The translations under genes were made by a program, and so were the position numbers. Positions 35,501 through 38,500 of a stretch of 64,000 nucleotides of DNA are shown here, one piece after another. The stretch spans positions 441,797 to 505,796 of the forward strand of contig JAQGDQ010000132.1 in assembly GCA_030141605.1 (NCBI GenBank), in the 5' to 3' direction. The notes below the pieces were generated by a model. The model was not told the origin of the DNA. It made no database searches and worked only from the letters and a program-made list of their open reading frames with translations. Every line of letters starts with the position of its first letter. Positions within the stretch are counted from its first letter, which is position 1. The stretch is from Tubiluchus corallicola. Its lineage: Eukaryota > Animalia > Priapulida.

Positions 35501-38500
35501 TGACGGCTCGTAGCTATTAGTGGAGGTGCGGCAAAATTAAAAAAATTTTAGGCATTGTTTTAATACTGTGTAAAACGAAATAAACATATGTAATTATACT
35601 GTTGTAATTGTAATTTTAAACAAACAAATGAATTTCAACATGACCTTGATAAACTCCTAAACTATTGTTTTCTTACATTAAACTAAAAAATATTGTTTTC
35701 TTACGAATAGCCTAAATTGTCGCAGTTCGAGAATATGCCGATACACGGCTTTTAAACACGTGACATCTGACAACACGTGCTGCATTGAGCGACAGTACTC
35801 TTTCAACTTAAAATACAGCGTCTTATCTCAGACATGTGCACATGGCCGCATGTGCGGACAGCAGCCAAACACCGCATTGCTTGGGCTGTGAAGCAAATTG
35901 TACTTCCCTCAGGTGCTCCGGTTCCACACAAGTATAAAGAATGAACGAAAGAAAAAAGATTATTCTGTTGAATATTATCAATAATATTGAGTGAAAACAG
36001 GGGGTGCTGCAGTACCACAGGGCCTATACACGAGCCACAACTGGATGGCACTAATACAGAATTAATTGAATTTGGAAGCCAAACTTTTAAAAACAGGAAA
36101 GTGAAAATGTTAGAACGCAGCCTGGCCTTGAACCAGGAACGGTCTACTGACTCCACTTACATGACAGTTGTCATAACCACAAGAGTACTGCATTCCCTTG
36201 CGATCATACTTTATCCTTTATAGTTAGCAACAAGTTTCAGCATTTCCAAAGTAGGCTGCTCACACCACAGTGATTCTAATTAGACTGATTTAATTCTGAT
36301 TATTTTTGAGCCTGAATTTTGCTTTGCTTTCTAACAAAATGGCTCTTTGTAAAACACTCAGGTCGACAGGCTGATATCTCTTTTGCTTTCTTCGACACTG
36401 AGAAGACAGAACTGTTAAACTGTAACTGCACAACAATATTTGAATTTTATTGTCTTTATGCAGATTTTTCCATTTATGACAGAACTGCTTTGCATTTTTT
36501 TTGTAAATTCAAAAGATCTATTTAAAATGTCTAATATTCAATTATGTAACGTGTAATTTATATTAAACATTGTCACGGTATCTTTATTTTTTTACTTTCA
36601 ATTTCAACTTTAAATTTGCGGCTAAAATTTACAATTTCTCACACACAAGAAATTAGTTCGTGAAGCGGATTAGGATGAGAATTAGGATTAGGTTAGGGTT
36701 AGGGTAGGATATTTAAATTGTGTGGGGGAATAGTAAACCCCTTCGAAATTTTCATTTCTAGAATGGTAGCGCCGGTGGAACACTTCAGCCCAGCAACCAA
36801 TTCCTGGGAAGAGATTACTGACCTACCCAACCCGCGGATCGGTATCGCAGCTGCTGTTTACAGGGGGAAGATTTATTGTGTGGGTGGGTTAGGCGAGCCT
36901 CTCCCTAATGGGACCGTGCCAATTCTGTCTCACGTGGAGGCACTGAATCCGCTAATAAACAGGTAAAGTTGTGAATCTGTTTGACTTGCCCCAAAATTAT
37001 GTGTAAGAACAATTGAATGTTTCAAATTAAGTCATACATTAGCTACTTACTAACTAACTAACTAATTCACTCACTCAATCACTCACTTACCTACTTTCCA
37101 GCCTACATACTTACTAACTAAATTACTTACTTGCTTGCTTGCTTACTTACTTACTTACTTACTTAAAAATTGCTTACTTGCTTAATTATACTTGCTTTGT
37201 TGTTGTTTGTTTGCTTGCTTACTTATTCTTTCTTGCTTATTCCCTCACTGCCCTTTCTTCTGCACTACTAATGATGACGTCTACCTCATTTGTAATTGTT
37301 GATTTGTTGCATTATGTGCTTGAGAGAAGAAAAATATATTGTCTATGTTTACATGTTGGTTCCTTACTTTGCTGACCTATTGTAATGGTTTTAGCTTATA
37401 ACATCGCAGCGCCATCTAGTGTGAAGTTCATCTGTATCACTTCAAATGAATCTACTAATCTTGAATATATAGCTCAGCTTTTCTGCTGGCCATCCTTCCA
37501 AAATTATTTTGAGTTAATTCAATTAGTTGAGCCTGGCACCGGGTTAACCTGGTTGGGTTAGCAATAATTCAGGCGCGCCATTGGTTAAAATGAGCCCAGC
37601 AATACAGCAACTTAACTTCTGTACAGGTCGCTGTAATCAAGTTGCTGCAGTCAGTACGTAATTTGAAATATTTCTCAACCTAGAAACGGGGAAAACAAAT
37701 TCTTAAAATAAAAATGACAGCCAGCGCTAACTTAAGAAAAGACATACATGCCTTTTACTCTGACGCAACATCTGCAACGTTTCGACTCAGTTAACGTCAT
37801 GTTCACACTACAATCACCTAATTAGAATACAGTGCGAAAAATATACAAAAATCCACACTGTGAAAAGTTCGTTAGTGAAAAATTCAAGCATTAAGTTACT
37901 AAGCTATCTTTTGGATTTGTATAACCCGATATCTAAATTTACTATTTTTTTATTTGTCTTGTTTGTTCATCACAGTGTCGATTATTGTATATATTTTTAC
38001 ATTGTGTTTTTATTTAGGTGATTGTTGTGTGAACATGACATTAACTGTATCGAAACGTTGCAGATGTTGTTTCTGCATAAAAGCCATGTCTTCTCTTAAG
38101 TGGGGGCTGGCTGTCATTTTTATTTTCATTTCTTACTCTTTGTGCACAAACAGTATACAATTGAAGTGTGAATCTAATATTGGATATAAAAAAACTGTAG
38201 ACCAATGTTGTTATAAAACTCTTGATTACTGATTGTTTAGGTGGGAAGTTATGAAACCGTTAGACACATGTAGATGTTGGGCTTCATTATGCGAAGCTGA
38301 AGGTAACTTGTACTTAGTAGGTGGATCCTCCAAAGTATGTGGTGACAAACCAGCTGCTGTGGATAATCTGGACACTATTGACATCTACAAAGAACTGGAG
38401 GATCGTTGGGAGTATAAAACTTCAATGTCTCGTGCTAGATGGCGCAGCTTAGCAAAAAGTATAGGCAAGTGTTCTTAGCTGATTTTGTTGTTTGAGGCTT

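What the first reader, a model, noticed from the sequence alone, without database searches (positions are those of the whole stretch)
37705..38126. Non-coding inverted-arm element carrying two outward-facing hammerhead motifs with a G3:C8 core swap
Seen: two ~160-bp arms in inverted orientation. Each reads TATA-like box, then GUGAACA-U-helix II-GAAA-CG-UU, then an A-rich poly(A)-like hexamer, pointing away from the centre. A second locus (47726-48015) has the same layout with GUGAAUA and a perfect helix II. Established: the hammerhead core is CUGANGA...GAAA...UH; positions 3 and 8 form a tertiary base pair that tolerates compensatory swaps; Penelope-like elements carry minimal type I hammerheads with a palindromic vestigial helix III (here AACGUU) thought to act as dimers, and often insert with inverted pLTRs. 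Inference: G3 is present in all three copies and paired with C8 or U8, which suggests a family-level covariant core rather than decay. This would be a non-autonomous ribozyme-bearing retroelement that canonical CUGANGA searches would miss.
Basis: partly seen in the sequence, partly recalled or inferred. Interest (0 to 1): 0.8.

Follow-up and report, generated by a model that had tools for sequence, protein, structure and literature searches.

The report
Swapped-core hammerhead in Penelope retroelement ends
These two inverted arms are most likely cut-short, back-to-back end pieces of a common Penelope-type jumping gene inside an animal gene's intron, and they carry a hammerhead-shaped RNA motif whose paired core letters C and G have traded places, a natural form I found in print only as a laboratory mutant and one predicted, not shown, to cut itself.

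Summary
Observation largely confirmed. The arms (37688-37869 minus, 37968-38126 plus; 133 of 155 bases alike) each carry GUGAACA-U-helix II-GAAA-CGUU; a third copy (47821 minus) has G3:U8. Corrections: the fourth arm stops at the core, window copies are partly decayed, and the arms are not non-coding: they end in the first codons of a Penelope-like (PLE) ORF (best window hit of an independent PLE N-terminus profile); the second locus holds another piece of such an ORF. Contigs from public runs show a repeat family (228 contigs in one run), thinning toward 5', with a single-copy centre and varied head-to-head joints: 5'-truncated retrocopies, not a MITE. No alternative letter was listed at G3 or C8 while neighbours vary (68 of 108 rows hidden), and one sub-family has a compensated 6-bp helix II. 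So G3:C8 is likely family-level. No full ORF, sister C3:G8 family or RNA was found; cleavage is untested, and this locus folds into a masking hairpin. Natural U3:A8 is published; G3:C8 I found only as a lab mutant (one key paper unavailable). The scan has noted G3:C8 in other animal genomes. New variant; interest 0.5.

The parts
37688..37869 (-). Left arm: 5'-truncated PLE end (AT-rich leader, hammerhead motif, hexamer, first 19 codons of the ORF); carries 17 nt more 3' sequence than the right arm (tail-like)
   Evidence: (loose ends at 37688-37692)
37776..37806 (-). Hammerhead-shaped core, G3 37806 : C8 37801, extra U, 3-bp helix II, GAAA, CGUU; predicted cut between 37776 and 37775
37688..37745 (-). 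Start of PLE ORF (MSFLKLALAVIFILRICFP), cut off by the end of the insertion
   Evidence: best window hit of the PLE N-terminal 26-aa profile, 13.7 bits, E 0.004; best of 20 shuffled windows 10.1
37870..37934 (.). Centre: essentially single-copy spacer, not shared by other family members
   Evidence: table 2 (depth near the single-copy level in X1, X2, X4)
37935..38126 (+). Right arm: 5'-truncated PLE end; homology to the left arm starts at 37968, other family copies cover it from about 37916-37935; ends at ORF base +41, the same base as the arm at 47726
38029..38059 (+). Hammerhead-shaped core, G3 38029 : C8 38034; helix II broken in this copy by A38049 (G in 81-86% of depth in X1, X2, X4); predicted cut between 38059 and 38060
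38076..38126 (+). Hexamer (AATAAA in most copies), then GCC-ATG at 38086 and 13-14 ORF codons (MSSLKWGLAVIFI)
   Evidence: (loose ends)
47726..47867 (-). Third copy of the arm; core G3 47821 : U8 47816, perfect 4-bp helix II, G16.2 lost, AATAAA 47776, ATG 47766
47868..47933 (+). Fragment of a PLE ORF N-terminal domain (FFLKTCLDEGLQPKFIQFRITN), abutting the third arm head to head; membership of the same family inferred from adjacency only
   Evidence: best window hit of the 110-aa profile, 15.2 bits, E 0.001; best of 20 shuffles 8.7
47934..48013 (+). Fourth arm: leader only, ends at the core, no hammerhead motif
   Evidence: nhmmer 12.4 bits, model positions 5-70

Best explanation
The element is likely a head-to-head pair of 5'-truncated retrocopies of the pLTR/ORF-start junction of an abundant Penelope-like element (PLE) family, whose minimal type I hammerhead motif likely carries G3:C8 in place of C3:G8 across the family and is predicted to cut slowly, as a dimer or with the PLE protein's help, only in the tandem transcript of an intact element. 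Steps: (1) shown - each arm reads leader, hammerhead-shaped core, AATAAA, ATG and the first 14-19 codons of a PLE-type ORF; (2) inferred from the PAc work (PMC11167929) - the PLE protein nicks AT-rich DNA on either strand and starts reverse transcription at fixed sites a short way into the ORF (here about +41 and about +75, a tail of roughly 30-35 nt), so copies end there, are cut short at 5' and often join back to back; (3) inferred - the family's founder swapped the tertiary 3-8 pair, keeping Watson-Crick geometry and the 2'-OH of position 8; (4) predicted - this particular locus is inert: copies are decayed, lie on opposite strands and pair with each other in the host kelch-gene intron RNA.
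For: ORF start in the arm and an ORF fragment at locus 2 are the top window hits of profiles built from RT+GIY-YIG proteins found through an unrelated RT remnant. Loose ends of other copies continue the frame as RFPHHQSV, like the RFPxxxSI/AI of the reference ORFs (read by eye). 228, 205, 71 and 16 contigs laid in runs X1, X2, X4, X5 (X1 and X2 one sample, possibly this DNA's source); depth falls steadily from the 3' end toward 5', the centre is single-copy and joints vary. Two of three copies end at the same base. No substitution row at 38029, 38034 or any other core position among the 40 shown, while 38028, 38033, 38040, 38046, 38047, 38049 vary; the weakest shown row of the 18 I computed reached 0.24 in some run. 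One depth-103 contig of X4 must carry G inserted after 38041, C46, A47 and G49, giving a perfect 6-bp helix II with G3:C8 kept (inferred from depths). Majority C38028 gives helix I UGC/GCA. A canonical C3:G8 PLE end with the same layout and a GIY-YIG remnant lies at 56234-56750. In a PLE hammerhead the C3G/G8C double mutant partly restores cleavage (PMC11167929).
Against: No copy sequences of the family beyond the three in the window were obtained, so 3:8 covariation could not be counted and no C3:G8 sister family was seen. In X1 the majority letter at 38040 is C (61%), which does not pair with U48, leaving helix II at 3 bp or 4 with a bulge. No full-length RT/EN ORF is linked to this family; the peptide hits are short (13.7-15.2 bits). 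None of the window copies folds into a hammerhead by minimum energy as monomer or homodimer, though neither does the canonical copy. With G3 fixed, the metagenome scan gave G8 16, A8 4, U8 3, C8 1 among 24 of 114 loci with helix II of 4 bp or more: G3 also arises without C8, and no G3:C8 family turned up there. PAc insertion in vitro does not need cleavage.
Confidence: 0.7

Rival explanations
1. Same PLE origin, but the G3:C8 motif is a dead ribozyme that hitch-hiked in a successful family; the swap came from drift and the helices persist only through recent common descent or a non-catalytic role.
For: Cleavage is dispensable for PAc insertion in vitro, and no reads ended at its cut site (PMC11167929); Naiad PLEs thrive without canonical hammerheads (PMC8557442); the double mutant is only a partial rescue; the main sub-family has a short helix II.
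Against: Two transversions fall exactly on the two partners of one tertiary pair and restore pairing while the other core positions are kept; by rough arithmetic 1 of 78 position pairs among 13 core positions times 3 of 9 pairing outcomes is about 0.004 (post hoc, since the motif was picked for this). A sub-family shows compensated helix II changes.
Confidence: 0.2
2. A non-autonomous retrozyme-like family derived from a PLE end, spreading as short tandem units by its own rolling-circle route and borrowing PLE proteins.
For: Most laid pieces are short 3' ends; one 237-nt contig of X5 holds two core units in direct tandem 139 nt apart (record 19); animal retrozymes derive from PLE ends (bioRxiv 10.64898/2026.07.22.740005).
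Against: Window copies are dispersed and inverted, not tandem; they differ in 5' length, end inside the ORF start, and one abuts a further ORF fragment. The tandem was seen in 1 contig at depth 6.
Confidence: 0.07
3. A MITE or other DNA-transposon derivative whose terminal inverted repeats resemble a hammerhead by chance.
For: Long inverted arms around a short centre; a 7-of-8 direct match ATTTCTCA/ATTTCTTA near the ends.
Against: That match is 10 nt off the left end; the centre is single-copy; other copies join arms of many lengths; coverage thins toward 5'; the arms encode a PLE ORF start; chance rate of the motif is far too low.
Confidence: 0.03

Closest known systems
Minimal type I hammerheads (min-HHR) in the pLTRs of metazoan Penelope-like elements (Cervera and de la Pena 2014, PMC4209133)
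   Same: Extra base between 9 and 10.1, G10.1-C11.1, palindromic CG at 15.2/16.2 with no helix III, 3-4 bp helix I, U-rich 5' flank; pairs on opposite strands about 100-700 bp apart are described there (here 223 bp).
   Different: Core is GUGANCA. Of the 56 representatives in their Fig. S3, 53 are C3:G8, 2 are U3:A8, 1 is U3:G8 and 0 have G3.
Natural U3:A8 core covariants (Perreault 2011, PMC3088659; Schistosoma Cercyon PLEs, PMC4209133)
   Same: Family-level compensatory change of the same tertiary pair, missed by CUGANGA descriptors.
   Different: U3:A8 needs two transitions and keeps a purine at 8; G3:C8 needs two transversions and puts a pyrimidine at the general-acid position.
PAc (Poseidon of Anolis) and its laboratory C3G/G8C double mutant (PMC11167929)
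   Same: Hammerhead just at or before the ORF start; insertions end at fixed sites inside the ORF start with an optional tail; the double mutant has exactly this core and partly cleaves, with protein help.
   Different: There the swap is engineered; the PAc ORF starts at stem II and copies end at +111-118, whereas here the ORF-like ATG is 51 nt further on and copies end near +41 and +75.
Animal non-LTR retrozymes (bioRxiv 10.64898/2026.07.22.740005)
   Same: Short, PLE-derived, type I hammerhead-bearing repeats.
   Different: Defined by direct tandem units; the window copies are inverted and dispersed.

Membership tests
Penelope-like element (C-terminal EN+) | Single ORF with telomerase-like RT and C-terminal GIY-YIG | tested here: inconclusive
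   Only the first 19 codons and a 22-codon N-terminal fragment are present; they are the top window hits of profiles from RT+GIY-YIG proteins. No RT or EN is linked to this family; no genome held.
Penelope-like element (C-terminal EN+) | 5'-truncated copies, often with an inverted copy adjoining | tested here: met
   Coverage gradient, single-copy centre and varied head-to-head joints; two inverted loci in the window.
Penelope-like element (C-terminal EN+) | Fixed 3' ends with an optional 30-40 bp tail | tested here: inconclusive
   Two of three copies end at +41, one at +58; loose-end consensus (agreement 0.56-0.64) stays shared to about +72-77. Fits, but rests on weak consensus lines.
Penelope-like element (C-terminal EN+) | Hammerhead motif in the pLTR upstream of the ORF start | tested here: met
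   Core ends 26 nt before the ORF-like ATG in the right arm.
Penelope-like element (C-terminal EN+) | Clade placement by RT phylogeny (Penelope/Poseidon, Neptune, Nematis, Hydra) | not testable with these tools
   No RT of this family was obtained.
Minimal type I hammerhead | Core CUGANGA...GAAA...UH with literal C3 and G8 | tested here: not met
   G3 and C8 (U8 in one copy); all other core bases present. It is therefore filed as a variant.
Minimal type I hammerhead | Watson-Crick pair between positions 3 and 8 | tested here: met
   G3:C8 in 2 of 3 window copies, G3:U8 in 1; no alternative letter listed at either position in four runs (40 of 108 rows seen).
Minimal type I hammerhead | Helix II closed by G10.1-C11.1 and helix I of 3 or more pairs, kept across copies | tested here: inconclusive
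   Majority letters give 3-6 bp helix II and UGC/GCA helix I; one sub-family shows compensation; but window copies have breaks and no sequence-level covariation count was possible.
Minimal type I hammerhead | Self-cleavage after UH (as dimer or protein-assisted) | not testable with these tools
   Needs a bench assay; no RNA holder listed.
Non-LTR retrozyme | Direct tandem units each with a hammerhead | tested here: not met
   Window copies are inverted and dispersed; one tandem contig only, in run X5.
MITE / TIR DNA transposon | Both TIRs plus constant centre as a unit, flanked by a TSD | tested here: not met
   Centre single-copy, arm lengths vary; no TSD at the ends.

The most novel reading that the evidence does not exclude
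A natural, working G3:C8 hammerhead fixed in a PLE lineage by selection on cleavage, with sub-families still compensating helix II; this would show that PLE hammerheads matter in vivo although insertion in vitro does not need them, and that CUGANGA-based censuses miss whole ribozyme-bearing transposon families in animals.
Probability: 0.5. Interest if true: 0.65.

Novelty: new variant of a known kind. Interest (0 to 1): 0.5.

Why it matters
The 3-8 pair sits at the hammerhead's active site (the ribose of position 8 is the general acid; established knowledge, recalled). Nature was known to swap it to U3:A8; G3:C8 I found in print only as an engineered rescue. A repeat family that keeps G3:C8 gives a natural test of whether PLE hammerheads are under selection to cleave, an open question since PAc inserts without cleavage and Naiads lack canonical motifs. 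It also means standard descriptors undercount these motifs. The locus itself is an ordinary decayed transposon insertion.

Tried and rejected
No whole genome is held, so no copy census or consensus. Rfam gave no hammerhead hit at E<=10 in 36500-49000, but also none for the canonical motif at 56644, so the miss says nothing. No RNA holder listed; X6 (RNA by guess) laid 0 contigs: no evidence either way. The narrow lay listed only 2 substitution rows and omitted ones seen, so I drew nothing from its substitution table. Pattern scans: 5 viral loci, none with helices, 48-56% GC except one at 46%; 114 metagenome loci from 12 of 64 parts, none of this family by blastn or nhmmer beyond the searched motif itself; 1 hit in a Rhodobacteraceae MAG, chance-like. 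PLE profile against viral contigs: 16 pattern matches, 0 confirmed. Word-based protein searches with the RT remnant and with an SLC6 exon found nothing, so the host's phylum is undetermined. A reading of 48014-48230 as continuing PLE ORF after a spliced-out fourth arm looked attractive by eye but got no profile support. A reading of 47888-47912 as a second decayed hammerhead was dropped: no GAAA, and the stretch fits the ORF profile. The ATG inside the core (38035) is unlikely to be the ORF start: most copies have an in-frame TGA 13 codons on. The 21-aa arm peptide's Pfam hit (Pilosulin, E 0.07, below cut-off) is treated as a hydrophobic-stretch chance match. Look-ups of earlier findings in this genome returned nothing; the sequence look-up returned one unrelated note.

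Full report
Setting. The window is AT-rich animal-type DNA (about 35% GC) with BTB-kelch genes, a GPCR and an SLC6 transporter. No whole genome is held. The finding lies between kelch exons near 36770-36960 and 38241-38467 on the plus strand, so in an intron; the second locus lies between minus-strand SLC6 exons. The host's phylum was not determined.

Observation. The arms are real: 133 of 155 aligned bases identical between 37705-37869 (-) and 37970-38126 (+). Each has GTGAACA, an extra T, a G...C-closed helix II, GAAA and CGTT. A profile of the arms finds exactly four places in the window: these two, 47726-47867 (-) and a partial one at 47934-48013 (+) that stops at the core. A generic minimal-hammerhead pattern hits the window 3 times (37806, 47821, 56644) against 0.16 expected from 200 dinucleotide shuffles, and G3:C8 never arose in the shuffles. 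Every window copy is damaged somewhere: the right arm has a C-A mismatch in helix II and fails the pattern, the left arm has 3 bp of helix II and 2 bp of helix I, the third copy has U8 and has lost G16.2.

It is a repeat family with retroelement geometry. One search listed 6 runs, 4 holding the stretch, from 2 studies, none on record as RNA. Laid at 80% likeness on 37560-38280, runs X1, X2, X4 and X5 gave 228, 205, 71 and 16 contigs (X1 and X2 are one sample and may be this DNA's source; summed depth is no copy number). Depth is highest at the outer 3' ends, falls step by step toward the centre (X1: 22391 at 38060-38084, 10272, 6675, 3183, 1997, 1001, 318 at 37910-37934) and is at the single-copy level in the middle. 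Joints show other copies joining arms of many lengths head to head (37723 to 38020, 37745 to 37995, 37815 to 38003 and others). No target-site duplication flanks the ends; the best match, 7 of 8 bases, is 10 nt off. This is 5' truncation with inversion, as described for PLEs (PMC8557442, passages; PMC4209133, main text parts 1-2 of 4), not a MITE.

The arms end in a PLE ORF. An unrelated RT remnant at 29543-29896 (-) retrieved 134 proteins, among them ORFs of about 830 aa with RVT_1 and, in 2 of the 6 scanned, a sub-threshold GIY-YIG hit; two more came. Profiles from the N-termini of 8 of these were run on all six frames of the window. The 26-residue profile's best hit is the left arm, MSFLKLALAVIFILRICFP from ATG 37745 (13.7 bits, E 0.004; best of 20 shuffled windows 10.1). 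The 110-residue profile's best hit is the centre of the second locus, FFLKTCLDEGLQPKFIQFRITN at 47868-47933 (15.2 bits, E 0.001; shuffles at most 8.7). The right-arm and third-arm peptides, shorter and more decayed, were not among the top 14 rows. The loose-end consensus of copies that run past 37688 continues the frame as RFPHHQSV, matching RFPxxxSI/AI in the references (my reading; agreement of those lines is only 0.56-0.64). The right and third arms end at the same base, +41 of the ORF; the left at +58; longer copies stay alike to about +72-77. In PAc, reverse transcription starts at two sites inside the ORF start and the stretch between them is the 30-40 bp tail (PMC11167929, main text section 3 read whole). 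The window offers a positive control: at 56234-56311 a GIY-YIG remnant (15.5 bits, E 7e-4) is followed by a TATA box, a canonical CTGATGA-T-helix II-GAAA motif at 56644, AATAAA and an ATG.

Is G3:C8 the family state? Probably. In one search, 40 of 108 substitution rows were shown. None is at 38029 (G3), 38034 (C8) or any other core position; rows do appear at 38022, 38025, 38028, 38033 (N7), 38040, 38046, 38047 and 38049, so the region was eligible. I computed shares for 18 of the 40 rows, those that looked weakest plus those in the motif; the lowest per-row maximum was 0.24. If rows are kept by share, which is my inference, C3 or G8 stays below about a quarter in every run. Majority letters repair the right arm: G38049 (81-86% in X1, X2, X4; 50% in X5) restores helix II, C38028 (54-59% in X1, X2; 33% in X4; 83% in X5) gives helix I UGC/GCA, A38076 gives AATAAA. 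In X4 a single contig of depth 103 must account for the rows at 38046, 38047, 38049 and the G inserted after 38041, which together give GACAUG/CAUGUC, six perfect pairs around UAAC, with G3:C8 kept: structure-preserving change in a second sample. Against: in X1 the majority at 38040 is C (61%), which leaves only 3 pairs or 4 with a bulge; the narrow lay meant to expose the hidden rows suppressed nearly all of them; and no C3:G8 sister of this family was seen, so 3-8 covariation rests on comparison with other families.

Controls elsewhere. A metagenome scan with G3 fixed and position 8 free returned 114 loci from 12 of 64 parts: G8 61, A8 26, C8 17, U8 10; among the 24 with helix II of 4 bp or more, G8 16, A8 4, U8 3, C8 1. 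So G3 without C8 is common among look-alikes (decayed copies or an insertion variant), and no G3:C8 family appeared there. Viral and prokaryote-genome scans gave only chance-like hits.

How it likely works. In an intact tandem PLE transcript two motifs would pair through the palindromic AACGUU to form the shared helix III and cut after CGUU, slowly or with protein help; minimal PLE hammerheads cleave weakly and only as dimers in vitro (PMC4209133), and PAc's needs its protein (PMC11167929). G8C alone is ruinous and C3G partly rescues it (PMC8495972, passage); the same rescue was shown in PAc; a G3-C8 lab variant is also mentioned in PMC3884650 (passages). At this locus the motifs are on opposite strands and the intron RNA folds into a hairpin of -192.7 kcal/mol (z -18.6, 0 of 100 shuffles) that pairs both cores, so cleavage here is improbable. 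Energy minimisation does not give the hammerhead fold for any copy, the canonical one included, so it does not discriminate.

Novelty. Natural U3:A8 is reported in PMC3088659 (section 8 and passages) and for Schistosoma PLEs. None of 56 representative PLE motifs has G3 (supplement parts 1-2 of 3). Full-text searches for hammerhead with G3-C8, C3G and G8C, G3C8, G3 C8, GUGANCA-type strings, natural variants/U3-A8, and Penelope-like/C3G found only laboratory mutants; the one searchable supplement of PMC8557442 had no such motif. Lunse et al. on PLE hammerhead variants is not held (known to me only from a reference list and a review's passages, PMC6765202) and could already contain this variant; the retrozyme preprint was read in part 1 of 5 only, its supplements closed. 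Earlier notes of this scan report G3:C8 PLE families in at least 3 other genomes (17 notes, 8 shown); I recorded my reading before seeing them and did not check their DNA.

Verdict. A likely PLE end-piece pair carrying a likely family-level G3:C8 hammerhead variant; new variant of a known kind; cleavage untested; interest 0.5.

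Noticed in passing
window 56234-56750 (+): Canonical PLE 3' end of another family: GIY-YIG remnant, 88-bp perfect tandem duplication (56383-56558), TATA box, CUGAUGA-U hammerhead at 56644 with 4-bp helix II and CCA/UGG helix I, AATAAA at 56711, ATG at 56739.
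   Followed up: partly
window 29543-29896 (-): Decayed PLE reverse-transcriptase fragment next to an (ATT)n tract; 134 relatives at E<=0.001. No link to the G3:C8 family shown.
   Followed up: partly
L017, L024, L025, L031, L051, L059, L061, L074, L088, L089, L101, L115, L117 (at the pattern match): 13 loci (12 distinct) of a repeat family read helix I GCC, then UGUGAAGA-U, helix II GAAC...GUUC and GAAACGUU-GGC: one extra base in the core where C3 should be. Possibly another family-level core variant; not checked against print.
   Followed up: partly
run X5, record 19, laid on window 38029-38070: A 237-nt contig holds two core units of this family in direct tandem, 139 nt apart: the geometry that would allow a cis dimer. 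One contig, depth 6.
   Followed up: no
window 38005-38018 (+), also 47985-47997: TTTTTATTTAG|GTG reads as a 3' splice site 11 nt before G3 and is kept in other copies (loose ends); Drosophila Penelope has an intron ending at helix I (PMC4209133). No donor site identified.
   Followed up: no
window 48501-48884 (+): Open frame that looks by recall like the C-terminal part of a LINE (CR1/L2-type) reverse transcriptase; no Pfam hit.
   Followed up: partly
window 904-1041, 6530-6893, 35014-35397, 38590-38998: Another dispersed repeat family of about 350 bp with 3-4 copies in kelch-gene introns (families D10-D12, D14-D16, D19).
   Followed up: no
window 52254-53336 (+): Single-exon rhodopsin-family GPCR (PF00001, E 5e-24) lying between minus-strand SLC6 exons, probably nested in an intron.
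   Followed up: no
window 24400-25950: About 1.5 kb imperfect (TAC)n tract.
   Followed up: no
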